A DNA stretch of 64,000 bases, from contig CAZCJR010000003.1 in NCBI GenBank assembly GCA_964499225.1, positions 42,340-106,339 of the forward strand, written 5' to 3'. Every line of letters begins with the position of its first letter. The first letter of the stretch is position 1. Shown in pieces: positions 971-53,299 of this stretch. Origin of the DNA: an uncultured Cellvibrionaceae bacterium (GTDB lineage Bacteria > Pseudomonadota > Gammaproteobacteria > Pseudomonadales > Cellvibrionaceae). Below the pieces are notes generated by a model, which was not told the DNA's origin, did no database searches, and saw only the letters and a program-made list of their open reading frames with translations. A program made the translations under genes and the position numbers.

Positions 971-979
971 TAAAGAACA

Positions 980-2429: not shown

Positions 2430-3088
2430 TTGATAAAATGATTGATAAAATTTATTTATTACACCATGAAGAGTATATTAATAGAGGTATTTTAATTAAA
2501 AATAGATTAAAAGAAGAAAATATTGAATTTGAAATAGTAACAAATTTTTCACCAGAAGAAATTAAACAACAATATGATAATTTAATAAATGATTATTGTA
2601 AGGATATTACAATAATACATCCATATGGTGAATATATAAATACACCAATTAAAATATCAATTGGTAGTTATAGTTTAATAAGGAAACATCTGTATTGTTT
2701 ACATGAACAAATAAAAAATAATTATGAAAATATTTTAATTTTAGAAGATGATGTTGATATACCAATAAATTTTAATCTTTATCTAGAAAATAATATGAGA
2801 GATTTTTTAGAATTAAAAAAGACCGAAAATGTTACAATGTTGATGATTGGTAAATCTCATAATTTTATATCTAAAAATTATAATCCTATTAAATTTGCAC
2901 ATTATAGTGTGAATCAAAAAACAAGGTGTACTCACGCATATATAACAAATATTGAAGCCACAAAAAAACTTGTAAGAAATTTTGAACCAATTAATTTACC
3001 AATAGATTTCAAATTAAATGAAATAATGCAAACAGAAAATATAAAAGTAGCTTGGTCTGAACCAGGTTTAATTCAAAAACCAATATAA
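2426..3088 (+). CDS. GT25 family glycosyltransferase
   Basis: ILILEDD and THAYI motifs. Confidence 0.75.
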   Translation: MIDKMIDKIYLLHHEEYINRGILIKNRLKEENIEFEIVTNFSPEEIKQQYDNLINDYCKDITIIHPYGEYINTPIKISIGSYSLIRKHLYCLHEQIKNNYENILILEDDVDIPINFNLYLENNMRDFLELKKTENVTMLMIGKSHNFISKNYNPIKFAHYSVNQKTRCTHAYITNIEATKKLVRNFEPINLPIDFKLNEIMQTENIKVAWSEPGLIQKPI

Positions 3089-3091
3089 AAA

Positions 3092-6337: not shown

Positions 6338-6344
6338 AAAAAAT

Positions 6345-7304
6345 ATGAAAGATTTAAAAGTTCATTTTGCTAATTGGTATGATCCATTTATACCAAATTC
6401 ATCTAAAAATAATATATTTACATATTTACTTGGCAAGAATTTTAATGTAATTTTGGATAATATTAATCCAGATGTAGTTTTTTATGGTTTGGGTAATTAT
6501 GTACCGAATTTCCCAAGTAATTGTATAAAAATATATGTTACTGGTGAACCAGGTAGTGTTAATACATTACTTCATAATGAAAATATTCCGGATAGACATT
6601 ATTTACATATGAAAGAAGCTAATCATATTATATCATCATATCACTATACAAATAGGCAAAATTATACCTATTTTCCAATAGGTTTAATATGGCTTTATCA
6701 TCATTTATATATTTATAAATTTAATGATTTTCAAAATTCATTTGAAGATTTAATAAAAAGAAAAGAATTTACTGTTGATGATATAAAAAATAAAAAATTT
6801 TGTGTATATATGCACTGGCAAGTCGCAGCCGAAAAAAGAAATATTATACTGAAAAAATTAAGTGAATATAAAAAAGTAGATATTGTTAATTGTCCAATGG
6901 GTCATATTAATAAATTAAATGTATTTAAAGATTATAAATTTTCATTTGCATTTATGAATCATTTTTGGAAATATTCAAAATCTGAAAACGCTAAAATTCC
7001 AGGACTTATAGATGAGAAAATATTCGATTCTTATATTGCTAATACGGTTCCGTTATTTTATGGTAATGCCGAAATAGGAGATTATCTTAATAGTAAATGT
7101 TTTTTGAATTGGCATGATTATGATGATTTAAATATAAAAAGTGAAAATAGTTTTCTTGAAGCCGATGAAAAATTCATAGAAAAAATAATAGAATTAGATA
7201 ACAATGATGAATTATATTTAGAATATTTAAATAATAATTTTATATACAGTGTAGATGATTTATTATTAAATGATTTGTCTGAAAAATTAAAAAATATAAT
7301 ATAA
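6345..7304 (+). CDS. GT10 alpha-1,3-fucosyltransferase-like protein
   Basis: NPDVVFY, TGEP, YKFSFAF and DEKIFDSYIANTVPLFYG. Confidence 0.85.
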   Translation: MKDLKVHFANWYDPFIPNSSKNNIFTYLLGKNFNVILDNINPDVVFYGLGNYVPNFPSNCIKIYVTGEPGSVNTLLHNENIPDRHYLHMKEANHIISSYHYTNRQNYTYFPIGLIWLYHHLYIYKFNDFQNSFEDLIKRKEFTVDDIKNKKFCVYMHWQVAAEKRNIILKKLSEYKKVDIVNCPMGHINKLNVFKDYKFSFAFMNHFWKYSKSENAKIPGLIDEKIFDSYIANTVPLFYGNAEIGDYLNSKCFLNWHDYDDLNIKSENSFLEADEKFIEKIIELDNNDELYLEYLNNNFIYSVDDLLLNDLSEKLKNII

Positions 7305-8023
7305 TGAAAAAATTAATTAAAAAAATTATAGAATTATCATATGATAAAAAGGAAGGTCATATTGCTAGTTCTCTTTCAATATTGGATTTGTTATATGTTT
7401 TTTATGATAATATGTCAGAAAATAATAAACTTATATTGAGTAAAGGTCATGCTTCTTTGGGTTTATATGTTATATTAGATCATTTTGGTTTATTGGACTA
7501 TAATTTAAACGAATTTTGTGATTTTGATGGTCGTATTGGTGGTCATCCTTCAGATAGAATTAAAAATGTAGAAGCTTCAACAGGTTCATTGGGACATGGT
7601 TTACCAATAGGAGTTGGTATATCTTTAGGAAATAAAATAAATAATAATGATAGTAAAACATTTATAATTATTGGTGATGGTGAATCTAATGAAGGAACGA
7701 CTTGGGAATCAGCTATGTTGGCATCTGAACATAAATTAAATAATATTTGTTGTATTATGGATTATAATCATTCTGGTGATAGAGCCTTAAAAATAGATGA
7801 TGTTATGGAAAAATTTAAATCTTTTGGTTGGTGTTGTTTAGAAATAAATGGACACGATCATAATGAAATAATAAAATCTATGAATGTAAAGAGTGATAAA
7901 CCAATATTCATATTAGCTAATACTATCAAAGGTAATGGTGTGAAAATGATGGAAAATAATCCTGAATGGCATCATAAATTTCCAACTATAGAAGAGTATG
8001 AAGAAATAATTAATAATTTATGA
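7304..8023 (+). CDS. Transketolase, N-terminal (ThDP-binding) subunit
   Basis: LILSKGHA, GHP, STGSLGHG, GDGE...N ThDP motif and TIKG. Confidence 0.95.
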   Translation: MKKLIKKIIELSYDKKEGHIASSLSILDLLYVFYDNMSENNKLILSKGHASLGLYVILDHFGLLDYNLNEFCDFDGRIGGHPSDRIKNVEASTGSLGHGLPIGVGISLGNKINNNDSKTFIIIGDGESNEGTTWESAMLASEHKLNNICCIMDYNHSGDRALKIDDVMEKFKSFGWCCLEINGHDHNEIIKSMNVKSDKPIFILANTIKGNGVKMMENNPEWHHKFPTIEEYEEIINNL

Positions 8024-8895
8024 GAAAACAATTAACAAAAACTGTAGAAAATATATTAAGTTTTGATGATAAGACAGTATTATTATTGTGTGATATTGGT
8101 GTATTTGGTTTTAGAAATGCTTTTAAAAATAATATAAATAGAGTCTATAATATTGGTATATTGGAACAATCTACAATAGGTGTAGCTGCAGGTTTAACAA
8201 AAACAGGATTTATACCAATTGTTCATACGATAGCACCATTTTTGGTTGAGAGAGCCTATGAACAATTAAAAATAGATTTTGGTTATCAGAAATTAAACGG
8301 TAATTTCATATCCGTAGGTTCATCATATGATTATGCTGCATTAGGACCAACACATCATTGTCCTGGTGATGTATCAATATTAAAAAATATTCCAAATATG
8401 CAAATTGTAGTGCCTGGAAGTTCTATTGAATTTGATAAATTATTTAATGATAGTTATAATAATGGTTATCCAACCTATTATAGGTTGAGTGAATATGAAA
8501 ATGATGAAAGTGTGAATGTAGAATTTGGTAAATCCAATGTGATAAAAAAAGGAAAAACTGCTACAATATTATGTGTTGGTAATATGTTGAGTGTTGTACT
8601 TGATGCAACAGAAGATTTAGATGTGACCATATTGTATTATACAACTATATCACCATTTGATTCGGAAACATTATCTAATAATTTCAATGAGAATATAATA
8701 TTATGTGAACCATATTATGAAGGATGTTTAAATTATGAAGTTAATAAAGTTTTTTCTGATAAATCACATCGGATATTAAATATTGGTGTACCACACAAAT
8801 TTCTTACAAATTATGGTAAGAAAGAAGAACATGATGTTGATTTGGGACTTGATAAAAATTCTATATATAATAAAATAAAAAAGTTTTTATGTTGA
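8020..8895 (+). CDS. Transketolase, C-terminal (pyrimidine-binding) subunit
   Basis: NIGILEQ, RAYEQ, GPTHH and YYRL. Confidence 0.95.
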   Translation: MRKQLTKTVENILSFDDKTVLLLCDIGVFGFRNAFKNNINRVYNIGILEQSTIGVAAGLTKTGFIPIVHTIAPFLVERAYEQLKIDFGYQKLNGNFISVGSSYDYAALGPTHHCPGDVSILKNIPNMQIVVPGSSIEFDKLFNDSYNNGYPTYYRLSEYENDESVNVEFGKSNVIKKGKTATILCVGNMLSVVLDATEDLDVTILYYTTISPFDSETLSNNFNENIILCEPYYEGCLNYEVNKVFSDKSHRILNIGVPHKFLTNYGKKEEHDVDLGLDKNSIYNKIKKFLC

Positions 8896-9887
8896 ATATA
8901 ATACATAATGATATAAATAATATTGATATAGATTTAAGTAAAATGAAAAATAAATCAGTTTTGATAACTGGTGCATCTGGACTTATCGGTCTGTATATGT
9001 TGGCTGTATTAAAAAGAAAACAAAAAGAATATAATATTTCTATTTATACAATAAATAGAAATAAAATAAATGATATATATTTACCATTATTTGAAGATTG
9101 TTATAGAATAATAGCCGATATAACAGATAATTCAATTTATGAAACATTACCAAAATTTGATTATATTATACATGCAGCAGGTTATGGTCAACCAGGTAAA
9201 TTTATGTTAGATAAAATAAAAACTATAAAATTAAATACTACATCAACAATAAAATTATTAGAAAAGTTAAATATTGATGGTACATTTTTATTTGTTAGTA
9301 CTAGTGAATTATATAGTGGTTTAGAATTGTATAATATAACAGAAAATGAAATAGGTAATACAAATACAAATCATCCAAGATCTTGTTATATTGAAGGTAA
9401 AAGATGTGGTGAATCAATATGTCATTCATATATCGAAAATGGTGTAGATGTAAAAATTGCTAGATTAAGTTTAGCATATGGTCCTGGTACACAAATAGGT
9501 GATGCGAGAGTATTGAATTCATTAATTGAAAAAGGTATAAAAAATACTGAAATAAAATTAATGGATGGTGGACAAGCAATAAGAACATATTGCTATATAA
9601 CAGACACCATTGAAATGTTTTTAAATATTTTATTATTTGGAAAAGAACATACATATAATGTAGGTGGTAAATCTACTACAACAATATTGGATTTAGCTAA
9701 TATGATCGCTTATAAATTAAATAAAAAAGTAATAACACCAACTATTGTAGAAGAATTAGTCGGCAATCCAAAAATAGTTAATATATCAATTGATAAATAT
9801 ATAAATGAATTTGATAAAATAAGTTTTATATCATTGAATGATGGATTGGATAATACCATAAAATGGCAAAAAAAATTATATAAATGA
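8889..9887 (+). CDS. NAD-dependent epimerase/dehydratase (UDP-glucuronate decarboxylase-like extended SDR)
   Basis: ITGASGLIG, STSELY and RSCYIEGKRCGE (YxxxK). Confidence 0.85.
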   Translation: MLNIIHNDINNIDIDLSKMKNKSVLITGASGLIGLYMLAVLKRKQKEYNISIYTINRNKINDIYLPLFEDCYRIIADITDNSIYETLPKFDYIIHAAGYGQPGKFMLDKIKTIKLNTTSTIKLLEKLNIDGTFLFVSTSELYSGLELYNITENEIGNTNTNHPRSCYIEGKRCGESICHSYIENGVDVKIARLSLAYGPGTQIGDARVLNSLIEKGIKNTEIKLMDGGQAIRTYCYITDTIEMFLNILLFGKEHTYNVGGKSTTTILDLANMIAYKLNKKVITPTIVEELVGNPKIVNISIDKYINEFDKISFISLNDGLDNTIKWQKKLYK

Positions 9888-10798
9888 TGAATATAGTAGT
9901 AGATGATATTGAAAAAATATTAGGTTTTGAGTTAGAACAAAATATTAAAGATAGAATAATAAAATTTGATTTAGAATATGAATCTTTATCAAAAGATGAA
10001 AGAGATAGTTATTTATTGAATGTGTTAAATGTTTTATTAAATGACATAACTAAAAGTGGTAAACATAGAATAAATGAGTGGGAAAATGGTTGGAATCAAA
10101 ATTTAGAATTGTTTAAAGAAACAAAAAATATAGAAGATTTAATACCTAAATATCATGGTAAGAAGGATATTGTTAGATGGATGGGTGATGTAATAAAACC
10201 AATTACTGAAAATTTTGATTATAAGATACATATAATTATAGTTGATGCAATAATTCAATATTATTTAGGTGATATGTCAAATATTATTGAATTTGGATGT
10301 GGACCAGCTTATCATTTAATTAGACTTAATGAATATAAAAAAGATATAAAATTGTATGGTTCTGATTGGACTAAAACTTCACAAAACATAATAAATGATG
10401 TCAATGATGTTTTGGGTACAGATATAACACCATTTAATTTTGATTTTTTTAATCCTGATTATAATTTTAATATTCCAAAAAATAGTGGTGTATATACAGT
10501 TGCAGCTTTAGAACAAATAGGAGATAATATAGAGCCTTATATTAATTATTTGTTAGAGAATAAGCCAGAATTATGTGTCCATATGGAACCAATAGATGAA
10601 TTATTGGATGATGAATCATTGATAGATAAATTGTCAATATTATATTTTAGAAAACGAAATTATTTAAATGGATTTTTGCCATATTTAGAAAAATTAGAAA
10701 AAGAAAATAAAATTGAAATTATAAAAAAACAAAGAATTTATAGTGGTTCTTATTTTATCGAAGGACATTCTCTAATTGTTTGGAGACCAAAAAAATAA
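9884..10798 (+). CDS. Putative class I SAM-dependent methyltransferase
   Basis: IIEFGCGPAYH (motif I); glycan-island context. Confidence 0.6.
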   Translation: MMNIVVDDIEKILGFELEQNIKDRIIKFDLEYESLSKDERDSYLLNVLNVLLNDITKSGKHRINEWENGWNQNLELFKETKNIEDLIPKYHGKKDIVRWMGDVIKPITENFDYKIHIIIVDAIIQYYLGDMSNIIEFGCGPAYHLIRLNEYKKDIKLYGSDWTKTSQNIINDVNDVLGTDITPFNFDFFNPDYNFNIPKNSGVYTVAALEQIGDNIEPYINYLLENKPELCVHMEPIDELLDDESLIDKLSILYFRKRNYLNGFLPYLEKLEKENKIEIIKKQRIYSGSYFIEGHSLIVWRPKK

Positions 10799-10806
10799 AA
10801 AATAAA

Positions 10807-11724
10807 ATGAATATATTAATTACTGGTGGAGCCGGATATAAAGGAATATTATTGACTGAAAAGTTATTAATTATGGGATATACTGTGACTATTTTAGATA
10901 ATTTTATGTATGGTTATGAAAGTGTATTGCATTTGATTAAGTATAAAAATTTAAAAATTAAAAAATTAGACATAAGAAATATTACCGAAAATGATATAAA
11001 AAATTATGATGTTATTTATCATTTAGCTGGTATAAGTGGTATGCCTGCATGTGCTACTAATCCACATTCAGCAGAAAGTATTAATGTAGAATCTGTTTCA
11101 AAAATGGTTAAATTTTTATCTAAAGAACAAATTTTAATAAACGCTTCTACAACGTCATCATATGGTAATTGTGTTGGTTTAGTAAATGAAAAAACAGAAT
11201 TTTCACCAGTTAGTATATATGGTAAAACTAAACGAGAAGCGGAAAAGATAATTCAAAATAGAGAAAATAGTATATCATTAAGATTTGCAACTGTTTTTGG
11301 TACTTCTCCAAGAATGAGAAATGATTTAATGGTGAATGATTTTGTATATAAAGCAATACATGATAGAAGTGTTATATTATTCGCTGGTGAAACAAAAAGA
11401 ACATTTATTCACATAGATGATGCTGTTGATTCATATATATTTGCACTTAAAAATTTTTATGATATGAAAGGAGATGTTTATAATGTAGGTGATGAAGAAT
11501 TAAATTTATCAAAAATTGAAATAACAGATAAAATAAAAAATTATGTAGATTTTCAAGTTATTAATTCGGTTTTAACTGATTTGGATAATAGAAATTTTGA
11601 AATTTCTTTTCAGAAAATAAAAAAACATGGTTTTAATGTTACAAGAACATTAGAAGACGGTATAGTTGATTTGGTGAAATTATATAATTTTTACATTCAA
11701 TATACACCATATAAAGTAATATAA
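10807..11724 (+). CDS. NAD-dependent epimerase/dehydratase (extended SDR)
   Basis: MNILITGGAGYKG, ASTTSSYG, YGKTK and LRFATVFG. Confidence 0.9.
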   Translation: MNILITGGAGYKGILLTEKLLIMGYTVTILDNFMYGYESVLHLIKYKNLKIKKLDIRNITENDIKNYDVIYHLAGISGMPACATNPHSAESINVESVSKMVKFLSKEQILINASTTSSYGNCVGLVNEKTEFSPVSIYGKTKREAEKIIQNRENSISLRFATVFGTSPRMRNDLMVNDFVYKAIHDRSVILFAGETKRTFIHIDDAVDSYIFALKNFYDMKGDVYNVGDEELNLSKIEITDKIKNYVDFQVINSVLTDLDNRNFEISFQKIKKHGFNVTRTLEDGIVDLVKLYNFYIQYTPYKVI

Positions 11725-11725
11725 A

Positions 11726-12565
11726 ATGAGAATAATATTTTTTAATCATTATCATAATGGAGATATTCATTATTCGAGAGAATTTATCAAAGATATAATA
11801 AGAAAAACATCGGCTGATGAATATTGTTATTATCATATTAATAAATCAAATTTGTTGAAGGATATTGATGTTGCATATGGTGATCCACAAAATATAGATC
11901 GGCAAAAACAAATAATAGAAGTATCGGATAATATATTCATTAATACATGGATTGGTCAATGTGGTGCTAAATACATAACTAAAGATTGTTCAATTTATAG
12001 TAATTATAATATGTATAAAGATATTTTCAATTTTCTAAATATCGAAATAGAAGAATTAGAATATTATTTACCAAGTATAAATTATGATAAATTGGATACA
12101 ATAAACATAGAAGATTTTTTATCTAAAAATAAAAATAAAAAAATACTAATATGTAATGGTTCTGTATTATCTGGTCAATGTCCAAACTTCAGTTTTGATC
12201 AAATAATTTTTGATTTGTCATTAGATTTTCCTAATATAGATTTTATATTAACTAATAAAATAAATATATCTAATTTTAATATATTTTTTACAGATAATAT
12301 AATAAATATACCATTAAGTGATTTGAATGAAATATCTTATCTATCAACAAAATGCGATATTATTGTTGGTAGGGCATCTGGTCCACACGCATTTACACAC
12401 ATAAAAGAAAATTATAATAATATAAACAAAACATATATTAGTTTTGCTGATAAAATACTTGAAGGAAATTGGTATTCTAGTGATAAATGTAAACAAATAT
12501 GGTCTAATAATTATGATGAATCTTTAATAAAAGAAACAATAAAAAAAGAATTAGAAAAATTATGA
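11726..12565 (+). CDS. Putative GT-B (GT9-like) glycosyltransferase
   Basis: N-terminal GDIH and C-terminal CDIIVGRASGP resemble GT9 motifs; context. Confidence 0.45.
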   Translation: MRIIFFNHYHNGDIHYSREFIKDIIRKTSADEYCYYHINKSNLLKDIDVAYGDPQNIDRQKQIIEVSDNIFINTWIGQCGAKYITKDCSIYSNYNMYKDIFNFLNIEIEELEYYLPSINYDKLDTINIEDFLSKNKNKKILICNGSVLSGQCPNFSFDQIIFDLSLDFPNIDFILTNKINISNFNIFFTDNIINIPLSDLNEISYLSTKCDIIVGRASGPHAFTHIKENYNNINKTYISFADKILEGNWYSSDKCKQIWSNNYDESLIKETIKKELEKL

Positions 12566-12906
12566 TAGGAGAAAAAATAGAAGAACTAATTAAAATTAAA
12601 GTGTGTGAAATACTTAATAAAAATAAAAATATAGAATTGCCAGATGATTTAATAGAAACTGATAATCTTGGAGAGGTTATAGAAAAATTATCAATACTTC
12701 ATTGTAGAATGTGGTATTTGGAGGATGCTATGGCTGATGCTAAAACAGATTCGGAATTAGCGAATTTGAAAAGAAAAGTAGATATTTGTTTTAAACAAAA
12801 ACGACCAAAATATGTTCAAGCTATTAACAGAATGGTTGACAATGCTATTATAAATGAAAAAAGTCTTATTGAAGATTCTGTAAAAAAATATAAAGGTTAT
12901 GAATAA
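12562..12906 (+). CDS. Small helical protein, DUF4254-like
   Basis: ETDNLGEVIEKLSILHCRMWYLED resembles the DUF4254 core. Confidence 0.45.
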   Translation: MIGEKIEELIKIKVCEILNKNKNIELPDDLIETDNLGEVIEKLSILHCRMWYLEDAMADAKTDSELANLKRKVDICFKQKRPKYVQAINRMVDNAIINEKSLIEDSVKKYKGYE

Positions 12907-13687
12907 TTTAGTGATAGGAAATACATCACAATTATCATATTATTTTCCTGAAGATTATATAAAAATATCGTCAAGAAATATAGATTTCGAATATCATAAA
13001 ACACAAAAATATGATAGAATATTTTTGTGTTTTGCTGAACAAAGAACATTTATAGAAGATGATAAAAAATTATTTACTGATATAAATGTTGATTATACAA
13101 TAAAAGTTATAGATGAATTAAAAGATTGTTGTACTAAGATAGTTGTGTATTCAACTTGTGAATTGTGGAATAATTGTGATGGTCAAGTAAAAATCGAACA
13201 ATCATATAATTATAATTATTCACCATATATAGAATCAAAAGAGATGATGTCGGAATATATAATGAGTAATTATTCTTATGATGATGTGATAGTTTTATTT
13301 CCTTTTAATTTTAACTCACCACATAGAAAGCCAGGATTTTTATTTAGTAAAATATTCGATTCTATAATAAATAATAAAAAAATAGAAATAGGAGATACAT
13401 ATTTTTATAGAGATTTAGTACATCCAAAATATGTTGTTGAAAGATCAATATTAGAACAAGAACATGCCTTAGTTGGTTCTGGTAGATTAACATTTGTGAA
13501 TGATTTTATAAGAAAATTGTATTCTGGTATGGATATGAATTATGATGAATATGTAACTGAAAATTTCGATTGTAATCTTAAAGTTAAAAGAAAAACCTTT
13601 TGGGAAGAATCGAATATATGTAAGTATGAAAAAATAATTGATGATACGATAAATGAAATCAAAAAAATCAAAAATAAACTTAGTTAA
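12899..13687 (+). CDS. Atypical short SDR / NDP-sugar reductase-epimerase
   Basis: LVIGNTSQLS (degenerate Rossmann motif), YSTCELW, YIESK and FNFNSP. Confidence 0.6.
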   Translation: MNNLVIGNTSQLSYYFPEDYIKISSRNIDFEYHKTQKYDRIFLCFAEQRTFIEDDKKLFTDINVDYTIKVIDELKDCCTKIVVYSTCELWNNCDGQVKIEQSYNYNYSPYIESKEMMSEYIMSNYSYDDVIVLFPFNFNSPHRKPGFLFSKIFDSIINNKKIEIGDTYFYRDLVHPKYVVERSILEQEHALVGSGRLTFVNDFIRKLYSGMDMNYDEYVTENFDCNLKVKRKTFWEESNICKYEKIIDDTINEIKKIKNKLS

Positions 13688-14822
13688 AGATACTATTAAT
13701 AATGATGATATTGATAGTTTGATAGATTGGTTAAAGACCTATCCAAGACTAACTAAAGGAGAATTGACAATAGAATTCGAAAAAATATGGTCTGAATGGT
13801 TGGGTGTTAAGTATTCAGTTTTTATAAATTCTGGATCATCAGCTAATTTAGCTATGATATATTCCTTACTACAATCAAATAAATTAAAAAATAATAAAAT
13901 AATTGTACCAAGTGTTTCTTGGGTTACTACTGTATCTCCTACTATGCAATTTGGTATGCAACCAATATTATGTGAATGTGATGAAGATACTTTAGGTTTG
14001 GATATTAATCATTTTGAAAAACTTTGTAAAGAACATAATCCATCAGTAGTTATATTAGTTCATGTTTTAGGTTTTCCTAATAAAATGAAGGAAATAATGG
14101 ATATTTGTGATAGATACGGTGTTATTTTATTGGAAGATTCTTGTGAAACCGTAGGTTCATTGTATGATAATAAAAAAACTGGTACATTTGGTTTAATGAG
14201 TTCATTTTCATTTTATTTTGGACATCATTTATCAACGATAGAAGGTGGTATGATATGTACAGATGATAAAGAATTATATAATTTATTATTATCTATTAGA
14301 AGTCATGGCTGGAGTCGAGATTTAGATTTAGAAACTCAAAATAAGTTAAAAGAAGAATATGATATAGATGATTTTAAATCTTTATATACATTTTTTTATC
14401 CTGGATTCAATTTAAGGTCAACTGATTTACAAGCAAAAATAGGTATAGATCAAATGAAAAAAATCGATCAACATAATATAATTAGAAGTAATAATTTTAA
14501 AATATATCATGAGAATATTTTTAATGATTATTGGAAAATAAATCCAGTAGATGGTTTCATATCAAATTTTAATTATCCTATTATACATCCAAAAAAAGAT
14601 GAAATAGTTAAAAAATTAATGGAAAATAATATTGAATGTCGTCCATTAGTTTGTGGTTCAATTGGTAAACAACCATTTTGGAAAAAATTATATGGTGAAA
14701 CTAATTTTGAATTTGCTGATAAAGTAGATGAATTAGGTTTGTATGTACCTAATAATCATCAAATTACAGAAGAAGAATTATTTAGAATAATAGATACTAT
14801 AAATAGTGTCACAAAACAATGA
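13653..14822 (+). CDS. colD: PLP-dependent DegT-family enzyme, GDP-4-keto-6-deoxymannose 3-dehydratase (ColD)-like
   Basis: NSGSSAN and LLEDSCE; [14 protein letters not shown] has His at the usual Schiff-base Lys position; RSHGW; no Fe-S Cys insert of RfbH/E1; adjacent to gmd. Confidence 0.75.
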
Positions 14823-17119
14823 AAAAAATGAAAAAAGCGTTAATAACAGGAATAACAGGACAAGACGGCTCGTACTTGACAGAATTATTATTAAAAAAAG
14901 GATATGAAGTTCACGGTGTTGTGAGAAGAAGTAGTTCCATAAATACAACCAGAATAGATCATATGTATTCTAATTCAAAATTAACATTACATTATGGTGA
15001 TATGTCTGATTCATTGTCATTAGATGGTTTAATTAATTTAATCAAACCGGATGAAATATATAATCTTGCAGCTCAATCTCACGTTCATGTTTCTTTTCAA
15101 ATACCAGAATATACTGGTCAGGTTGATGCTTTGGGAACATTAAAATTGATAGAAGCTGTAAAAAAACATTGTCCTAATTGTAAAATTTATAATGCGACAA
15201 CATCAGAATTATATGGTAAAGTTCAGGAAATACCACAAACCGAAACTACACCATTTTATCCAAGATCGCCATATGGCGTTGCAAAACTATATTCATACTG
15301 GATATCTAAAAATTATAGAGAAAGTTATAATATGTTTATTTCTAATGGTATTTTATTTAATCATGAAACAAGTGCTGATTTTACTCCCATGATTTTTAAA
15401 ATTGATGATGAAATAGATATTAAGCCAATTTCTGAAATAGTTAAATATCATACTAATAAAGGAAAAACATCAATAGATGTAAATAAAAAAGAATATCAAG
15501 GAACAGAAGTTAGTGAAGATTTATATGTTTGGGATAAAAATGATTGGACAAAAGTAAAATTTGCATCTGGATATCCACATGATATAGAAAATGATAATAA
15601 AAATCCTAGATTTTTAATTAGTAAAAATGCTTCATATTTAGCTACATCATCTCATAAATGTATAATGGAAGATGAAAGTGAAAAAACATTTGGTGATATT
15701 GAAATAGGGGATAAAGTGAATTTAATTGAATATCCTATAATTTTAGAAAAAGAAATAGAATTATCAGAAAAAGAGTCAGAATTAATTGGTTTTATTGTAG
15801 GTGATGGTAATTATAATCAAAAAAGAAACAGTCTTAGATTAACAGGAAAAGAGACAAATTTTTTAGAAAAATATTCTAAAATATGGGAAGAACTTGGAGG
15901 TGATGTATATAAATATCAAAGTGTTTCAGGATTTAATGAAAATGAAAAAATATGGCAATATGATTTAAATTCAAATAAAGAATGGAATAAAAAATATTTG
16001 AATGATATATATGATGAATATAATAAAAAAAGAGTACCTAAATTTATATTAAATTCAAATAAAAAAATACAATTGCTTTTTCTTAAAGGTTATAATAATG
16101 CTGATGGTTTAAAATCTAATTCCTGTAAATATGAATTTAAGAATTTTAAAACAAATTCACACACATTATCTGCAGGTCTAATATATCTTTTAAAAAATAC
16201 AACAGGTCAAGACTATAATATTAATATTGAAAGAAAACATAATTTCGGTGAAGAAAGAATATATTATTCAATTAATATTTTAAGTGATTCTAATAAAGGA
16301 CAAAATCATAGAAATAATATAGATAAATATAATTTAGTGTTAAATTTAATAGAAGATGGATATTCACAAAGAAAAATACAAAGAGAAACAGGAATTAGTA
16401 GAACATTCATAAGAAAAATACAAAATGGTTATATACCGAATAATTCACATCATTTGGAAATAAATAAAAACACCATCAAAAAAATAATAGAGATGAAAGA
16501 TTATGATGGTTGGTTTTTTGATTTGGAAACTGAGAGTGGTACTTTTCATGCTGGTGTTGGTCAAGGACATATTCATAATAGTGAAAGAAGAGGTGAAACA
16601 TTTGTAACGAGAAAAATAACAATTGCTATATCTAAAATAGTTAAAGGAACACAAGAAATTTTGGAATTGGGTAATTTAGACTCTAAAAGAGATTGGGGTT
16701 ATGCTCCTGATTATGTTGAGGGTATGTGGAGGATTTTACAATCTGATAAACCAGATGATTTTGTATTAGCGACTAATGAAACACATTCTATTAGAGAATT
16801 TATAGAAGAAAGTGTTGAAGTATATAATGATTGGTTATATTATACCATTCGTGAACATAATTTATGTTTACCGGAATTTGATAATTTCCAATATATAGAT
16901 TTGGAATGGAGAGGTGAAGGAGTTAATGAAGTAGGTTTTTGTAAAAATAGAAATAAAGTAATAATTAAAATAAATCCTAAATATTATAGACCGGCTGAAG
17001 TAGATTTATTGTTAGGTGATCCAACAAAAGCAAAAGATATATTGGGTTGGGAACCAAAAACAAAATTTAAAGAATTAGTTGAAAAAATGATGATTCATGA
17101 TTTAAATTCTAAAAATTAG
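14819..17119 (+). CDS. gmd: GDP-mannose 4,6-dehydratase interrupted by an intein
   Basis: [31 protein letters not shown], and LFNHE|...|[32 protein letters not shown]. Confidence 0.97.
15368..16579 (+). mobile_element. 404-aa intein with LAGLIDADG homing endonuclease and extra HTH, in gmd
   Basis: Inserted between NHE and S of conserved NHES; block B ATSSH, block [10 protein letters not shown], block [11 protein letters not shown], block F WFFDLET, terminal HN/S; first residue is Thr. Confidence 0.93.
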
Positions 17120-17146
17120 TTATTCTCAAAAAGAATAACTAATTTT
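17112..17146. terminator. 15-bp perfect hairpin at the end of gmd
   Basis: aaaattagttattct-caaaa-agaataactaatttt followed by T-rich sequence. Confidence 0.7.
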
Positions 17147-17152
17147 GTTTTT

Positions 17153-17935
17153 ATGAAGAAAGTACATTTAGATAAATTATTACATATTGCTATTGTTGCC
17201 GCCTATGAAGCCGGTGTTGAAATTATTAAAGTAAGAAATAGTGTTGATATCGGTGCTGTTAAAAAGATAGATAAAAGTTATGTAACTGATGCTGATATAA
17301 ATGCAAATAATGTTATAATGTCAGCATTGAAACAAACAGGTATATCAATTATAAGTGAAGAAATTGATAATGATATCAAAAGAAGTAATATTGTTTGGAT
17401 TGTAGATCCATTAGATGGTACATCAGAATTTGTTGCTGGTGGAGAAGAATTCACAGTAAATATAGCCTTGATAGAAAATCGAAAAGTCGTATTAGGTGTA
17501 GTGTATGTTCCAATGACAAAAGAATTATATTTTGCTCATAAATATATTGGTTCATATAAAATAATAGGTGATGATATAGTAAAAGGTATTGATTATTTAA
17601 TAGATAAATCAGTTAAATTACCATATACTAAGACAGAAGTATATACCATCGTTGCCAGTAAATTAAATTTAGATAAGAAAACAAAATTCTTTATTGATAC
17701 TATAAGTGAAGGAAAAGAAGTAGTATATAAAAATAGATCAAGTTCGTTAAAATTTTGTATGATAGCCGAAGGAAATGCCGATATCTATCCAAGATATTCT
17801 TGTATTTTTGAATGGGATACCGCAGCATCTCACGCAATTGTTAAATTTGCTGGAAAAAATATATATACTTTATATGGATATGAATTAACATATAATAAAA
17901 AATATTTAATGAATCCGTATTTCATAGTAAAATAA
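17153..17935 (+). CDS. cysQ: 3'(2'),5'-bisphosphate nucleotidase
   Basis: VTDAD, IISEE, WIVDPLDGT, SSLKFCMIAEG and EWDTAA. Confidence 0.92.
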   Translation: MKKVHLDKLLHIAIVAAYEAGVEIIKVRNSVDIGAVKKIDKSYVTDADINANNVIMSALKQTGISIISEEIDNDIKRSNIVWIVDPLDGTSEFVAGGEEFTVNIALIENRKVVLGVVYVPMTKELYFAHKYIGSYKIIGDDIVKGIDYLIDKSVKLPYTKTEVYTIVASKLNLDKKTKFFIDTISEGKEVVYKNRSSSLKFCMIAEGNADIYPRYSCIFEWDTAASHAIVKFAGKNIYTLYGYELTYNKKYLMNPYFIVK

Positions 17936-17944
17936 ATTAAATAT

Positions 17945-18121
17945 ATGGATCAAGCTAAACATAATTATTTGAAGTCGATAGATATGGATTATCGACTTCT
18001 TGTTAGAAAAATAGAAGAATTAGAATCAAAAGATAAATTAGATTCTGGTGAAGAAGAACATTTAGATGTATTGATTCAGTTAAGAGATGAAAAATTAGAT
18101 AATATAGAATTAGGAAGATGA
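17945..18121 (+). CDS. 58-aa hypothetical protein with C-terminal LRDEKLDNI motif variant (not in ORF track)
   Basis: MDQAKHNYL...LRDEKLDNIELGR*; TGA overlaps the smpB ATG. Confidence 0.6.
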   Translation: MDQAKHNYLKSIDMDYRLLVRKIEELESKDKLDSGEEEHLDVLIQLRDEKLDNIELGR

Positions 18122-36552: not shown

Positions 36553-36602
36553 ACTTTTTTAGACAAATAAAATATAATATATAAATACAAATAAACATTA
36601 AG

Positions 36603-36665
36603 ATGTTATAGATTAATACATACATAAATTACAACAGAAGTCATTGCGGCTTGTACTATACTTGA
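36603..36665 (+). promoter_or_regulatory. Leader ORF with amber codon at position 3 (ML*INTYINYNRSHCGLYYT*)
   Basis: ATG TTA TAG ATT...TGA; overlaps the 5' arm of the hairpin; TAATATATA at 36575-36583. Confidence 0.6.
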
Positions 36666-36695
36666 AAGAGTTGTGCAAGGTGCAATGGCTTTTTT
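36638..36695 (+). terminator. Long GAAA-capped hairpin with U-tract (attenuator-like)
   Basis: aagtcattgc/gcaatggctt, cttgtac/gtgcaag and actt-GAAA-gagt stems with G-U pairs, then 6 T; GC-rich against background. Confidence 0.75.
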
Positions 36696-36735
36696 GCGTT
36701 ATATAAAAAATTAAAAACAAATAAATAAAAATAAG

Positions 36736-37092
36736 ATGAAAATAGAAGTAGAATTAGAAGAAAGATATAAATTAACATTTGAAAATAGTAGTATGTGTAT
36801 GGGACAGTATTATGCAGAAGATGACTGGAGTATTATTGTTTATGGTAGAAGTATTATAGATGATGTATTAGAAATGAAATATCATTATAGATATAGTGAT
36901 TTACAGTATAATGGTGGTGATATAGAAAAAGTAGATGTGATATTATATGATGGTAATATTATTGAAATTCCAAATACGGAAAAAGAATATAAAGAATACA
37001 CAATGTATCAAATATATGAAATGACTTTTAAATCAACAGAAGAATTGAAACAATTATTGAGAGAAGAAAAATTAAATAGAATATTATCATGA
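36736..37092 (+). CDS. Hypothetical protein with C-terminal motif
   Basis: ends LREEKLNRILS*. Confidence 0.75.
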   Translation: MKIEVELEERYKLTFENSSMCMGQYYAEDDWSIIVYGRSIIDDVLEMKYHYRYSDLQYNGGDIEKVDVILYDGNIIEIPNTEKEYKEYTMYQIYEMTFKSTEELKQLLREEKLNRILS

Positions 37093-37304
37093 GTTGGAAA
37101 TGTAGTGTATGTTTTTATAGAGAATCCGGTATGTGTTATAATGATAAATTTGCTATAATAGAAGAAATACCATTGAATAGAAAAGGAGAAAAACTGGAAA
37201 CGGCTATAATAAAATGTGAAAATTATAGCAATAATATTAAAAATAAGAGATTATTAAAATTAAGAGAAGAAAAATTAAATAGAATATTAAAAAAAATAAA
37301 TTAA
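37089..37304 (+). CDS. Cys-rich hypothetical protein with C-terminal motif
   Basis: CSVC...C...C; ends LREEKLNRILKKIN*. Confidence 0.75.
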   Translation: MSWKCSVCFYRESGMCYNDKFAIIEEIPLNRKGEKLETAIIKCENYSNNIKNKRLLKLREEKLNRILKKIN

Positions 37305-37310
37305 GAAAAC

Positions 37311-37685
37311 ATGAATTAGATTAAAAAATTAAGAGTGGTTACACATCGTAACTTAGACTTTGGTCAACAAGCCGTTCAATTAGGACATGCTGGTATTACA
37401 TTTCAACATGAACATCCGGAAATTTCAAAAGATTGGTACACAAATTCCAATTATTTGATATTTTTATCAGTTGAAAATGAAATAGAATTATCAAAATTGA
37501 TTCAGAAATGTAAAGATAAAAATTTAGAACATACAGTATTTATCGAACCGGATTTAAACGATTCAATTACGGCAGTTGCTATTGGACCATCTAATGTCGC
37601 TAGAAAAATTACAGGTCATTTACCAAAAGCGTTTAAAGAGATAAAAATAAATCAAAATTATGAAATCGAAAATAACATTAAGTAA
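37311..37685 (+). CDS. Pth2-like peptidyl-tRNA hydrolase with in-frame TAG at codon 3
   Basis: ATG AAT TAG ATT AAA AAA TTA AGA GTG GTT ACA CAT CGT; GQQAVQLGHA, LIFLSV and FIEPDL...TAVAIGP. Confidence 0.8.
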
Positions 37686-38001
37686 TTTGGAAGACAAATC
37701 AAATAAAAAATTGATGAGTATGATAAATAAGAATAATATCAGAATCAGTAGATTAGAAGATATTATTAAATTTTCAAATGATTTTGATATTGAATTGTGT
37801 GAAGTTCAAAGAAATATGATTAATGATAAAATAAAATTTTATACTGAACAGGTTTATAAAATAACATATTTTATGATATGGAAAAATTATAAAGTTAAAG
37901 ATGAAAATTTTATTTGTTTTTGGGATATTAAAAAAGAAGAAGTTGAAAGATTAAGACAAAAATATAGTAGAGTAAATAAATTTAAAAGAATATTAAAATG
38001 A
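37660..38001 (+). CDS. Hypothetical protein with C-terminal motif
   Basis: ends SRVNKFKRILK*. Confidence 0.7.
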   Translation: MKSKITLSNLEDKSNKKLMSMINKNNIRISRLEDIIKFSNDFDIELCEVQRNMINDKIKFYTEQVYKITYFMIWKNYKVKDENFICFWDIKKEEVERLRQKYSRVNKFKRILK

Positions 38002-38199
38002 AAGAATTAGCAAAAGATATATGTGATAGTATTTCACACAACCTTTATAAACATGAAGATTATTATGATTACACTCAAGGAATGAGACGTTTTAATGATG
38101 ATGAAGAAAAAGAAATTCAAGAACTATATTTTAGAAAAATATGAAAATAGAAAAAGAGAAAATAAATTAAAAAGAATATTAAAGGAGGAAAAATTATGA
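37998..38199 (+). pseudogene. Frameshifted small gene; motif-bearing C-terminus lies in another frame
   Basis: Frame 0 stops at 38144; removing one A near 38113 gives ...DEEKEFKNYILEKYENRKRENKLKRILKEEKL*. Confidence 0.55.
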
Positions 38200-38480
38200 G
38201 TGTAGTAAAACAAAACGAAGTATATGTGACATATGGTAGATTTACAGATAATTCTACTTGTCAAGAGTGTAAAAAACCGGATAAATATTTAGTATTATCT
38301 GGTGGTGGTCAATTATCAAATTTGGAAGGAAATTGTTGTGATGATCATTTGAATTATTTTATAGAAGAAGGTAAAAAAACTTTATTGAAATATAAAAGAA
38401 CAGATATTAAAGTAAAATATCACAAAATAATACTTAGAGAAAATAAATTAAAAAGAATATTAAAGGAGGAAAAATTATGA
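38155..38480 (+). repeat. Perfect 45-bp direct repeat (38155-38199, 38436-38480) flanking one gene
   Basis: agagaaaataaattaaaaagaatattaaaggaggaaaaattatga occurs twice. Confidence 0.95.
38196..38480 (+). CDS. Hypothetical Cys-containing protein with C-terminal motif
   Basis: CQEC...CCDDH; ends LRENKLKRILKEEKL*; AAGGAGG 7 nt upstream. Confidence 0.8.
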   Translation: MSVVKQNEVYVTYGRFTDNSTCQECKKPDKYLVLSGGGQLSNLEGNCCDDHLNYFIEEGKKTLLKYKRTDIKVKYHKIILRENKLKRILKEEKL

Positions 38481-38884: not shown

Positions 38885-38901
38885 TTAAAAAGGAGGGTAA
38901 T

Positions 38902-38931
38902 ATGATGTAGATTATTAGAGCACCAACGTAA
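38902..38931 (+). promoter_or_regulatory. SD-led minigene with amber at codon 3 (MM*IIRAPT*)
   Basis: AAGGAGG 38890-38896, then ATG ATG TAG ATT ATT AGA GCA CCA ACG TAA. Confidence 0.55.
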
Positions 38932-39423: not shown

Positions 39424-39474
39424 TTATAGTGTCTGGGACGGATAAACATACTTTATCCGTCCCAGACACTATAA
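39424..39474. repeat. Perfect 23-bp inverted repeat (5-nt loop)
   Basis: ttatagtgtctgggacggataaa-catac-tttatccgtcccagacactataa. Confidence 0.95.
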
Positions 39475-53176: not shown

Positions 53177-53299
53177 ATGGAAGCATATATTGATATCGAA
53201 TGGATAATGAAAAATATTTTAAAATATAGTGATAGTGATATAAGAGAACATAAGAGAAAAATAAGAGAAGATAAATTAAAAAGAATATTAGGCTTATGA
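53177..53299 (+). CDS. 40-aa protein with C-terminal motif (not in ORF track)
   Basis: ends IREDKLKRILGL*; ATGA overlap with the next gene. Confidence 0.65.
   Translation: MEAYIDIEWIMKNILKYSDSDIREHKRKIREDKLKRILGL

What the first reader, a model, noticed from the sequence alone, without database searches (positions are those of the whole stretch)
37311..37685. Peptidyl-tRNA hydrolase gene that starts ATG-AAT-TAG-ATT
Seen: the ORF caller starts at GTG 37335, but an in-frame ATG at 37311 (7 nt after the upstream stop, A-rich context) reads M-N-*-I-K-K-L-R-V-V-T-H-R, completing the N-terminal strand typical of Pth2. The same ATG-NNN-TAG-ATT occurs at 36603 and 38902. My rough estimate at ~78% AT is about 2 chance copies in the whole window but only ~0.04 in this 2.3-kb strand segment. 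Long genes here are not broken by TAG, so this is local and not global recoding. Known: ATG-codon-stop minigenes (lambda bar) cause peptidyl-tRNA drop-off that Pth must recycle. Inference: a double-locked circuit in which both transcription and translation of Pth require UAG readthrough, so the rescue enzyme is made only when termination fails.
Basis: partly seen in the sequence, partly recalled or inferred. Interest (0 to 1): 0.9.

Follow-up and report, generated by a model that had tools for sequence, protein, structure and literature searches.

The report
Amber-gated phage Pth2-like gene
A phage gene for a peptidyl-tRNA-hydrolase-like enzyme starts with ATG, one codon and a TAG stop; the same layout is kept in about 80 distinct relatives, usually beside a phage tRNA that reads TAG, so the enzyme is probably made only when that suppressor tRNA is working.

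Summary
ATG AAT TAG ATT sits at 37311, in frame with a Pth2-fold ORF (Pfam PF01981; AlphaFold2 pLDDT 92.7; best PDB matches are archaeal Pth2 and human Bit1). It is not an error, because independent metagenome contigs carry it.

The layout is a family trait. Of 84 distinct homologues (huge phages, Al-Shayeb-type 460-735 kb phages, cultured cluster C mycobacteriophages), 82 have TAG and 2 have TAA at this spot. An in-frame ATG lies 1-9 codons upstream. A purine always follows the stop. In 80 of 84 there is no ATG/GTG/TTG before strand beta1.

A co-oriented tRNA with anticodon CUA is the commonest neighbour. It often ends about 60 nt before the leader ATG. It stays next to the gene even in distant relatives that have ordinary starts.

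Best reading: a programmed amber codon read by a phage suppressor tRNA gates translation of a Pth2-like enzyme. No suppressor tRNA was found in the 73 kb I could read of this genome, but TAG is avoided as a terminator (2 of 104 genes).

The 36603 copy, followed by a terminator hairpin, is conserved in one syntenic phage and may be an amber-dependent attenuator. The 38902 copy has no support. I found no prior description.

The parts
37311..37319 (+). Leader ATG AAT TAG: proposed true start codon (37311-37313), one sense codon, then the programmed amber codon (37317-37319)
   Evidence: for the sequence. Homologues have an in-frame ATG plus 0-8 further sense codons plus TAG. In the 30 nt before the stop, ATGs fall 85 in frame, 0 in frame +1 and 1 in frame +2.
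37320..37685 (+). Body of the Pth2-like protein (121 codons after the TAG) and its TAA stop (37683-37685)
   Evidence: Pfam PF01981. AlphaFold2 pLDDT 92.7, with strand beta1 at residues 4-9 after the TAG (L R V V T H). Foldseek matches Pth2 structures.
37335..37337 (+). GTG used by the ORF caller; a possible minor alternative start that would remove L4 and R5 of strand beta1
   Evidence: This codon is not GTG in the closest relatives: ATA in L119, GTA in L120 and L121. 80 of 84 homologues have no ATG/GTG/TTG before the Leu of beta1.
36553..36590 (+). Conserved promoter-like block ACTTTTTTAGACAAATAAAATATAATATATAAATAC at the head of the + strand operon that contains the Pth2-like gene
   Evidence: Nearly identical in L043. 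A similar TATATAAAT box lies 20-30 nt before the Pth2 leader ATG in many other loci. Function is inferred.
36603..36611 (+). Second amber mini-ORF ATG TTA TAG. If the TAG is read through, the frame continues 17 codons to TGA 36663-36665.
   Evidence: L043 has ATG ACA TAG ATT at the aligned position, with 42 open codons after the TAG.
36632..36697 (+). Strong hairpin (core 36640-36689) followed by U-run 36690-36695: an intrinsic terminator and candidate amber-dependent attenuator
   Evidence: RNAfold gives -31.5 kcal/mol, z -4.4. The homologous hairpin in L043 gives -43 kcal/mol, z -5.3. The attenuator role is inferred.
37269..37289 (+). Copy of the dispersed motif GAAAAATTAAATAGAATATTA (encodes ..EKLNRIL) just upstream of the Pth2 leader. 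Its relation to the leader is unknown.
   Evidence: 20 copies against 1.7 expected, 19 of them on the + strand. Contigs from other metagenomes break or pile up here.

Best explanation
The gene at 37311-37685 encodes a Pth2-fold (peptidyl-tRNA-hydrolase-like) protein. Its translation starts at ATG 37311 and must pass a programmed, evolutionarily conserved amber codon at codon 3. In this family the amber codon is read by a phage-encoded suppressor tRNA with anticodon CUA, which is normally encoded right beside the gene. If release factor 1 wins at the UAG, only a di- to deca-peptide is made. If the suppressor tRNA wins, the full enzyme is made. Synthesis of the enzyme is therefore tied to the amount of active suppressor tRNA.

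What is shown:
- the conserved ATG-(0-8 further sense codons)-TAG-purine leader;
- the Pth2 fold;
- the gene-tRNA(CUA) linkage;
- avoidance of TAG as a terminator.

What is inferred:
- that the UAG is actually translated;
- which residue goes in (probably Gln or Glu);
- that the enzyme clears peptidyl-tRNA produced when a suppressor competes with termination, or recycles the suppressor tRNA itself.

A second, weaker inference concerns 36603-36697. This is an amber mini-ORF in front of a terminator at the head of the operon. It may make transcription depend on the same suppression, in the manner of a pyrBI-type attenuator.
For: 1. Conservation. All 10, then 16 plus 1, then 80 related loci were examined. 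After removing near-duplicates, 82 of 84 distinct sequences have TAG and 2 have TAA at the leader position. Other ORFs in the same loci are preceded by TAA 340, TAG 123, TGA 112.

2. An in-frame ATG lies 1-9 codons before the stop in 82 of 83 loci. ATGs in the preceding 30 nt fall 85, 0 and 1 in frames 0, +1 and +2.

3. There is no ATG/GTG/TTG between the stop and the Leu of beta1 in 80 of 84. The AlphaFold2 model places L4-H9 in beta1.

4. The base after the stop is A in 61 and G in 20, never C or T. A +4 purine, especially A, favours amber suppression (PMC6266110).

5. tRNA(CUA) is by far the commonest neighbouring tRNA, with 70 hits in 107 loci, all co-oriented. It is present in 22 of 29 loci with adequate flanks. 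It clusters 58-76 nt upstream of the post-stop codon or 0.2-0.9 kb downstream.

6. Cultured cluster C mycobacteriophages show the same arrangement. Alice gp150 has ATG TAG GTG with an annotated 'tRNA-suppressor (cta)' 250 nt downstream. ScoobyDoobyDoo gp79 has GTG TAG GTG with tRNA(cta) 180 nt downstream.

7. Distant members with ordinary starts still sit beside a suppressor tRNA. In L122 it lies 7 nt downstream and in L123 1.15 kb downstream, and in both it is the only tRNA in 12 kb. LR745208 has tRNA(UUA) 45 nt downstream.

8. Extra in-body TAGs in L003, L066 and LR756501 align with Glu columns, one of them invariant E34. TAG therefore appears to be translated in these genes.

9. In the window TAG ends only 2 of 104 genes (TAA 69, TGA 33), binomial P 2.8e-5 against the TGA:TAG background. 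The family's own terminators are TAA 65, TGA 17, TAG 2.

10. The TAG is present in independent runs.
Against: - No tRNA of any kind was found in the window or in 9 kb upstream of it: ARAGORN, Rfam, and nhmmer/blastn with 53 suppressor tRNAs. For this genome the decoding agent is therefore assumed, not seen.
- There is no protein or ribosome-profiling evidence anywhere.
- In the two mycobacteriophage lineages a GTG with a well-spaced GAAGG/GGGG follows the TAG directly, so an ordinary start is possible there.
- In 57 of 81 sequences the codon after the stop is ATT, ATA, ATC or GTG, which are weak or alternative initiators.
- Two lineages have TAA with no suppressor tRNA in view (L007/L101, L097). 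One has no stop at all (L063).
- The canonical Pth2 catalytic Lys (GKGK motif) is replaced by G-(Y/Q)-Q. The family instead has its own invariant FQHEHPE and EPD motifs, so the enzymatic activity is not established.
- The attenuator idea rests on two genomes.
Confidence: 0.7

Rival explanations
1. Ordinary initiation downstream of the TAG. The ATG..TAG is a separate 2-10 codon upstream mini-ORF, and ribosomes re-initiate or start at the next codon (ATT 37320) or at GTG 37335. The TAG is a real stop and is never translated.
For: The ORF caller picks GTG 37335. In mycobacteriophages GTG directly follows TAG with a Shine-Dalgarno-like GAAGG/GGGG 7-9 nt upstream, and annotators start the gene there. 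In 57 of 81 homologues the post-stop codon is ATT, ATA, ATC or GTG.
Against: - 24 of 81 have GTA, GTT, AAC, AAT, AGC, ACA or ACT after the stop, and 80 of 84 have no canonical start before beta1.
- GTG 37335 is not conserved even in the closest relatives, and starting there would clip beta1.
- Coupling does not need TAG, yet TAG is used in 98% against 21% of control ORFs in genomes where TAA dominates.
- It does not explain the strict frame relation of ATG, stop and body (85:0:1) or the linkage to tRNA(CUA).
Confidence: 0.13
2. There is no dedicated suppressor, and the UAG is read through by near-cognate host tRNAs only when release factor 1 is limiting. The enzyme then reports failing termination.
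For: No suppressor tRNA was found in 73 kb of this genome. L043, the closest syntenic relative, also shows none in 11 kb. A +4 purine also weakens termination.
Against: Most relatives carry a tRNA(CUA) within about 1 kb, often 60 nt upstream. Only about 73 kb of a genome likely to exceed 100 kb was searched. TAG is strongly avoided as a terminator in the window, which fits a resident suppressor.
Confidence: 0.1
3. There is nothing gene-specific. The phage uses genetic code 15 (TAG = Gln) genome-wide, at least in late genes, and this TAG is one of many.
For: Source pipelines translated several homologues with TAG = Q. Lak phages and other recoded phages carry family members. TAG is almost unused as a stop here. 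The window holds no obvious structural or lysis genes, which is where recoding concentrates (preprint 10.1101/2021.08.26.457843).
Against: The window is 94% coding under the standard code, and no other gene needs TAG readthrough. TAG 17117 ends a gene in front of a hairpin. No recoded neighbours were found in 314 kb of related loci. Standard-code cultured mycobacteriophages have the same leader. The position of the TAG is conserved, which global recoding does not predict.
Confidence: 0.12
4. Pseudogene or assembly or sequencing error.
For: A stop at codon 3 is the usual signature of such artefacts.
Against: The stop is seen in independent runs, it is conserved in 84 distinct homologues while the body stays intact under purifying selection, and the predicted fold is high-confidence.
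Confidence: 0.01

Closest known systems
prfB (release factor 2) autoregulatory in-frame UGA
   Same: A gene of the termination and rescue branch of translation carries an early in-frame stop codon. Passage through it depends on how well that stop is being read, so expression reports the state of termination.
   Different: RF2 uses a +1 frameshift at codon 26 and senses its own product. Here the body is in the same frame (readthrough, not frameshift), the stop is at codon 2-10, and the likely input is a co-encoded suppressor tRNA.
Stop-codon-recoded phages (code 15 or 4; Lak, crAss-like and others; Borges et al., preprint 10.1101/2021.08.26.457843; Peters et al., PMC9523058)
   Same: A phage-encoded suppressor tRNA is proposed to read in-frame TAG, with in-frame stops holding back translation of certain genes until the suppressor is made. 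These are low-GC genomes with TAG depleted as a stop.
   Different: In those phages many TAGs are scattered through late and lysis genes. Here there is one TAG at a conserved position in one gene, physically coupled to the tRNA, in otherwise standard-code regions and in standard-code cultured phages. That paper does not mention a hydrolase (0 hits).
PTH2-like genes in tRNA arrays of cluster C mycobacteriophages and jumbo phages (Morgado and Vicente 2018, PMC5966550; Iyer et al. 2021, PMC7824862)
   Same: It is the same protein family in the same genomic setting among phage tRNA genes, with tmRNA nearby. A ribosome-rescue role is proposed.
   Different: Neither paper notes the leader amber codon or the specific pairing with the suppressor tRNA.
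Orphan amber suppressor tRNAs of standard-code jumbo phages (for example XacN1, PMC5852040)
   Same: A phage with standard code carries tRNA(CUA) genes and a peptidyl-tRNA hydrolase.
   Different: The authors read through all 18 TAG stops in silico and found no target gene. XacN1's hydrolase was not retrieved as a member of this subfamily.
Lambda bar minigenes and the pth(ts) phenotype
   Same: An ATG-one codon-stop mini-ORF is functionally linked to peptidyl-tRNA hydrolase. Very short peptidyl-tRNAs are prone to drop-off.
   Different: bar minigenes are free-standing and toxic to Pth-deficient hosts. Here the mini-ORF is in frame with, and fused to, the hydrolase gene. This is recalled from my own knowledge and was not tested.
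pyrBI-type translation-coupled attenuation
   Same: For the 36603-36697 element only: a leader ORF whose translation into a terminator hairpin would prevent termination.
   Different: Here the input would be amber suppression rather than the pace of RNA polymerase. It is supported by only two genomes and has not been tested.

Membership tests
PTH2 (PF01981) peptidyl-tRNA hydrolase superfamily | Significant match to the family profile | tested here: met
   PF01981 gives E 5.7e-10 and 39.9 bits against a cut-off of 23. The profile search finds 4055 related clusters.
PTH2 (PF01981) peptidyl-tRNA hydrolase superfamily | Pth2 alpha/beta fold | tested here: met
   AlphaFold2 pLDDT 92.7. The top 14 Foldseek matches are all Pth2 or Bit1 structures, with probability 1.0 and TM 0.55-0.76.
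PTH2 (PF01981) peptidyl-tRNA hydrolase superfamily | Canonical catalytic residues (Lys of the GKGK loop; Asp/Thr of DAGxT) | tested here: inconclusive
   In the alignment to 2zv3 the GKGK loop is replaced by G-Q-Q, and DAGHT corresponds to EPD..LN.D with a gap. The family has its own invariant Q20, H23, FQHEHPE and EPD.
PTH2 (PF01981) peptidyl-tRNA hydrolase superfamily | Hydrolysis of peptidyl-tRNA | not testable with these tools
   This needs an enzyme assay.
Programmed stop-codon readthrough (gene-specific recoding) | The in-frame stop is conserved at the same position among diverged homologues | tested here: met
   82 TAG plus 2 TAA of 84 distinct sequences; 1 further homologue has no stop.
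Programmed stop-codon readthrough (gene-specific recoding) | Start codon upstream and conserved protein downstream are in one frame, with no alternative start in between | tested here: met
   ATG frame counts are 85:0:1. 80 of 84 have no ATG/GTG/TTG before beta1. The window itself has GTG 37335 inside beta1.
Programmed stop-codon readthrough (gene-specific recoding) | A decoding agent (suppressor tRNA) is present | tested here: inconclusive
   It is present next to the gene in most relatives. It was not found in the window or 9 kb upstream.
Programmed stop-codon readthrough (gene-specific recoding) | Full-length product with an amino acid at the stop position | not testable with these tools
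   This needs proteomics or a reporter assay.
Genome-wide TAG reassignment (code 15) | Many conserved genes interrupted by in-frame TAG | tested here: not met
   Only the Pth2-like gene in 64 kb shows this. The rest of the genome was not available.
Genome-wide TAG reassignment (code 15) | TAG is not used as a terminator | tested here: inconclusive
   2 of 104 genes end in TAG, a strong depletion with P 2.8e-5, but one of them is followed by a terminator hairpin.
Lambda bar-type minigene | Free-standing ATG-codon-stop unit whose expression is toxic when Pth is limiting | tested here: not met
   The unit is fused in frame to the hydrolase ORF. Toxicity cannot be tested here.
Translation-coupled transcription attenuator (for 36603-36697) | Leader ORF overlapping an intrinsic terminator, conserved among relatives | tested here: inconclusive
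   The hairpin plus U-run scores z -4.4. The readthrough frame enters the hairpin in the window and in L043. The element was found in only these two genomes.

The most novel reading that the evidence does not exclude
The suppressor tRNA and the Pth2-like gene form a self-contained two-gene module that has spread across very different phages, from 23% GC groundwater huge phages to 65% GC mycobacteriophages. The enzyme acts specifically on the consequences of suppression, or on the suppressor tRNA itself by recycling or limiting it. The enzyme's own amber codon closes a feedback loop that sets the level of stop-codon suppression in the infected cell. In the window's lineage the same signal also controls transcription through an amber-dependent attenuator. 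On this reading the module is the natural target that has been missing for 'orphan' phage suppressor tRNAs, and a plausible first step towards full stop-codon recoding.
Probability: 0.35. Interest if true: 0.9.

Novelty: new variant of a known kind. Interest (0 to 1): 0.85.

Why it matters
Many large standard-code phages carry amber suppressor tRNAs, and nobody has found what those tRNAs read. The XacN1 study looked explicitly and found nothing. This family supplies a concrete, conserved and testable target: a single amber codon at the very start of the gene that most often sits next to the tRNA.

It links three things that have so far been treated separately: phage suppressor tRNAs, phage Pth2 and tmRNA 'rescue' genes, and the evolution of stop-codon recoding.

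It can be tested directly in cultured, genetically tractable cluster C mycobacteriophages.

It also has a practical consequence. Gene callers truncate this gene, start it after the TAG, or silently switch to code 15. Annotations of this family are therefore inconsistent.

Tried and rejected
- **Global recoding in the window.** I compared ORF maps under the standard code and with TAG read as sense. Only one join looked interesting, 14819-17119 plus 17153-17935. It is a real TAG stop followed by a hairpin and a separate inositol-monophosphatase-like gene.
- **Other genes lacking an ATG start.** All TTG-called starts have a normal ATG nearby.
- **Suppressor tRNA in this genome.** ARAGORN, Rfam at both gathering and E-value thresholds, a T-loop pattern search, and nhmmer/blastn with 53 suppressor tRNAs all came back negative for the window plus 9 kb upstream. 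Walking further along the contig failed, because only short contigs or the 61.9 kb assembly were retrievable.
- **Translational hop (take-off and landing codons).** Lys-Lys pairs fit some leaders but not those ending in Thr, Asn or Phe. Rejected.
- **UAG as an initiation codon read by an initiator-like tRNA(CUA).** Rejected, because an in-frame ATG is almost always present upstream.
- **Pyrrolysine.** The 'tRNA-Pyl' label from ARAGORN reflects the anticodon only. These tRNAs are ordinary cloverleaves with a CU-CUA-AA loop and mostly A73.
- **Amino-acid identity of the suppressor.** It could not be inferred from tRNA identity elements. Only the three in-body TAGs in Glu columns give a hint.
- **The 38902 site.** There is no ORF behind it, no terminator, and no conservation in L043, and intergenic TAG mini-ORFs are not enriched (7 of 35 against a 12.7% background).
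- **DNA similarity of the region to known phages.** None found.
- **Lak phage homologue.** ATGAATTAG is present but in the +1 frame, next to long A-runs. Left unresolved.

Full report
**1. The observation**

The window is about 23% GC and densely coded (94% under the standard code). It looks like a phage: it has a gp44-type clamp loader, an NAD-dependent ligase, a 5'-3' exonuclease, a transglycosylase and a large glycan-synthesis cluster. It comes from a groundwater metagenome.

At 37311 the sequence reads ATG AAT TAG ATT AAA AAA TTA AGA GTG GTT ACA CAT CGT. This is in frame with the ORF that the mechanical caller starts at GTG 37335.

The ORF is a Pth2-type protein:
- Pfam PF01981 above its curated cut-off.
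- An AlphaFold2 model with pLDDT 92.7.
- The best structural matches are all archaeal Pth2 or human Bit1.

In the model, strand beta1 is L-R-V-V-T-H, residues 4-9 after the TAG. A GTG start would therefore remove its first two residues.

The TAG is not an error. An exact contig, and a diverged contig from another study, both carry the same leader.

The other two ATGNNNTAGATT copies exist at 36603 and 38902.

**2. The leader stop is a family trait**

Related loci came from several sources:
- IMG/VR viral contigs.
- One GTDB contig labelled Pacearchaeota, 425 kb, probably a mis-binned phage.
- JGI and ENA metagenomes.
- GenBank phages.
- Contigs that encode database proteins.

After removing near-duplicates there are 84 distinct sequences, at 33-74% amino-acid identity to the window protein.
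- 82 have TAG and 2 have TAA immediately upstream of the two to ten residues that precede the conserved K-L-x-V-(I/V)-T-R-x-D-L strand. One further homologue (L063) has no stop.
- An ATG lies in frame 1-9 codons before the stop. Of 86 ATGs in the 30 nt before it, 85 are in frame.
- In 80 of 84 there is no ATG, GTG or TTG between the stop and the Leu of beta1.
- Other ORFs in the same loci are preceded by TAA 340, TAG 123 and TGA 112 times. The preference for TAG is therefore specific to this gene.
- The genes end with TAA 65, TGA 17 and TAG 2.
- The base after the leader stop is A in 61 and G in 20, never a pyrimidine. This is the context known to favour amber suppression (PMC6266110).
- Leader peptides vary: MK*, MN*, MT*, M*, MKDT*, MKET*, MKKPFYY* and others. 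What is conserved is the layout, not a sequence motif.

**3. Linkage to a suppressor tRNA**

ARAGORN finds a tRNA with anticodon CUA in most loci that have enough flank: 22 of 29, with 70 hits overall, all on the same strand as the gene. It is by far the commonest neighbouring tRNA.

Its 3' end often lies 58-76 nt before the post-stop codon, which is about 50-65 nt before the leader ATG. Otherwise it lies 0.2-0.9 kb downstream. A tRNA-Cys and a second tRNA(CUA) frequently follow.

The closest relative (L119, 74% identity, leader MKTN*) has an atypical tRNA with the loop UU-CUA-AA ending 33 nt before the ATG. ARAGORN missed this one.

The arrangement extends to cultured phages:
- In mycobacteriophage Alice the annotated peptidyl-tRNA hydrolase gp150 is preceded by ATG TAG. 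The annotators start it at the following GTG. It is followed 250 nt later by an annotated 'tRNA-suppressor (cta)'.
- ScoobyDoobyDoo gp79 has GTG TAG GTG and a tRNA(cta) 180 nt downstream.
- Five of the six 460-735 kb huge-phage genomes in GenBank that I examined have the leader.

More distant members with ordinary starts still sit beside a suppressor tRNA:
- L122: 7 nt downstream.
- L123: 1.15 kb downstream. In both L122 and L123 it is the only tRNA in 12 kb.
- LR745208: a tRNA(UUA) 45 nt downstream.

The gene-tRNA pairing is therefore older and wider than the amber gate. tmRNA genes lie a few kb away in three loci.

**4. The window's own genome**

I found no tRNA in the window or in 9 kb upstream of it. 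The rest of the contig could not be retrieved.

Indirect evidence for resident suppression is that TAG ends only 2 of 104 genes, against 33 for TGA. The TGA:TAG trinucleotide background is 1.74:1, which gives P 2.8e-5.

No other gene in the window needs TAG readthrough. I saw no recoded neighbours in 314 kb of related loci either.

**5. Mechanism**

The best-supported reading is as follows. Translation starts at ATG 37311. At the UAG, release factor 1 and a phage suppressor tRNA(CUA) compete. Only suppression yields the enzyme.

Placing the amber codon at codon 2-10, in a leader that is not structurally constrained, makes failure cheap and tolerates any inserted residue.

Three in-body TAGs in other members (L003, L066, LR756501) align with Glu columns, one of them invariant. 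This suggests Gln or Glu is inserted.

What the enzyme then does is inferred. It may clear peptidyl-tRNAs produced when a suppressor perturbs termination. It may recycle or limit the suppressor tRNA itself. The neighbouring tmRNA genes fit a rescue theme.

One caveat applies. The canonical Pth2 Lys loop is not conserved, and the family has its own invariant FQHEHPE and EPD motifs. The exact activity is therefore open.

**6. The other two copies**

*36603.* The stretch 36553-36705 is clearly homologous to L043:4162-4345. L043 is syntenic with window 33.6-39.4 kb. Both loci have:
- a nearly identical promoter-like block;
- ATG-NNN-TAG-ATT, with a different second codon in each;
- a strong hairpin with a U-run (z -4.4 and -5.3);
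- a post-TAG frame that stays open into the hairpin. In the window it runs 17 codons to TGA 36663 in the apical loop. In L043 it runs 42 codons, past the U-run.

This fits an attenuator in which amber suppression lets a ribosome melt the terminator at the head of the operon that contains the Pth2-like gene. The first ~60 nt of the block also resemble the promoter plus leader found directly in front of Pth2 in at least 17 other loci. The element may therefore have arisen by duplication of the leader. With only two genomes I rate the attenuator at about one in three.

*38902.* This site (AGGAGGG-N8-ATG ATG TAG) has nothing behind it and no counterpart in L043. Intergenic TAG mini-ORFs are not enriched.

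**7. Comparison with what is known**

PTH2-like genes in phage tRNA arrays and jumbo phages have been reported (PMC5966550; PMC7824862). Phage suppressor tRNAs and stop-codon recoding have been analysed (10.1101/2021.08.26.457843; PMC9523058). The XacN1 study states that no target of that phage's amber suppressor tRNAs could be found (PMC5852040).

None of the papers retrieved in eight full-text searches describes an amber codon at the start of the hydrolase gene or its pairing with the suppressor tRNA. The library is incomplete, so this is absence of evidence only.

In logic, the nearest known system is the RF2 in-frame UGA.

**8. Verdict**

- The cause is better assigned to a co-encoded suppressor tRNA than to failing termination.
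- The transcriptional half is possible but thinly supported.
- The third site is unsupported.

I give confidence 0.7 for the main explanation. I class it as a new variant of a known kind and score interest at 0.85.

Noticed in passing
window, 20 sites, e.g. 37066-37086, 37269-37289, 37975-37995, 38161-38181, 38442-38462, 53270-53290: The dispersed motif GAAAARWTAAANAGAATATTA occurs 20 times against 1.7 expected, 19 of them on the + strand. It usually forms the last codons of small ORFs (..EKLKRIL..), 0-45 nt before the next ATG, and is often followed by AAGGAGG. The same C-terminal EKKLKRI(L/I) appears in the syntenic phage L043. Contigs from several metagenomes break or pile up at these sites. 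It could be a gene-cassette junction, a regulatory box or a peptide motif.
   Followed up: partly
window 14819-17119: The GDP-mannose 4,6-dehydratase is interrupted by an intein-like insert with LAGLIDADG and HTH hits (residues about 320-530). It ends in one of only two TAG stops in the window and is followed by a hairpin that includes the TAG. The next gene (17153-17935, inositol-monophosphatase family) is in the same frame with no stop in between.
   Followed up: partly
window 1-18000 and L116 7800-9000: A large glycan-biosynthesis cluster sits in a phage. It includes several glycosyltransferases (GT10, GT25, GT47-like), TylF-type methyltransferases, a split transketolase, a DegT aminotransferase and epimerases/dehydratases.
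   Followed up: no
window, whole: TAG is almost unused as a terminator (2 of 104 genes, against TGA 33 and TAA 69), although TAG trinucleotides are only 1.7 times rarer than TGA.
   Followed up: yes
window 38887-38931: A strong Shine-Dalgarno sequence AGGAGGG is followed by ATG ATG TAG ATT ATT AGA GCA CCA ACG TAA in an intergenic spacer. It is a two-codon amber mini-ORF with nothing behind it, possibly a decayed gene start.
   Followed up: partly
window 39426-39472: A perfect 20-bp GC-rich inverted repeat with T-runs on both strands lies between convergent or adjacent genes. It looks like a bidirectional terminator.
   Followed up: no
L119 1446-1933: A GOLLD RNA (Rfam RF02032, 156.8 bits) with an embedded tRNA-Lys(CUU) lies directly upstream of the atypical tRNA(CUA) and the amber-leader Pth2-like gene, in the closest relative of the window's gene.
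   Followed up: partly
L008 1981-3000 (same in L009, L023, L024): A second N-terminal Pth2 fragment with its own amber leader (MKH*ITKESKLYVVDRKDLGQQYEAVQ) is fused in frame to a homing-endonuclease-like ORF (three ICPIHGEFEQ repeats plus CIEYDGRQHF), just upstream of the intact gene. It looks like an endonuclease insertion that duplicated the gene's 5' end. In L043 a 125-codon upstream ORF also ends in the leader ..EEMT-TAG, in frame with Pth2.
   Followed up: partly
L076 44-426, L090 2213-2588, L099 948-1304: Phage-encoded tmRNA genes lie 3-6 kb from the tRNA(CUA)/Pth2-like module.
   Followed up: no
L112 (Prevotella phage Lak-A2, MK250019) about 5237-6285: The Lak homologue has no in-frame canonical start. 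ATGAATTAG lies in the +1 frame next to long A-runs, and a tRNA(UUA) lies about 700 nt upstream. This could be a frameshift, an assembly error in a homopolymer, or a different mechanism.
   Followed up: no
L007/L021/L101 and L097: Two lineages have TAA instead of TAG in the leader (MKET-TAA-ATT, otherwise identical to MKET-TAG-ATT in L008 and L027). No tRNA is seen within 6 kb. L059 and LR745208 have a tRNA(UUA) near the gene.
   Followed up: partly
P0002, P0006, P0007 and many of P0024-P0072: Public protein sets hold members of this family translated with TAG = Q (code 15) from short contigs, while others are truncated at internal GTG, TTG or ATG codons. The family's N-termini in databases are therefore inconsistent.
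   Followed up: yes
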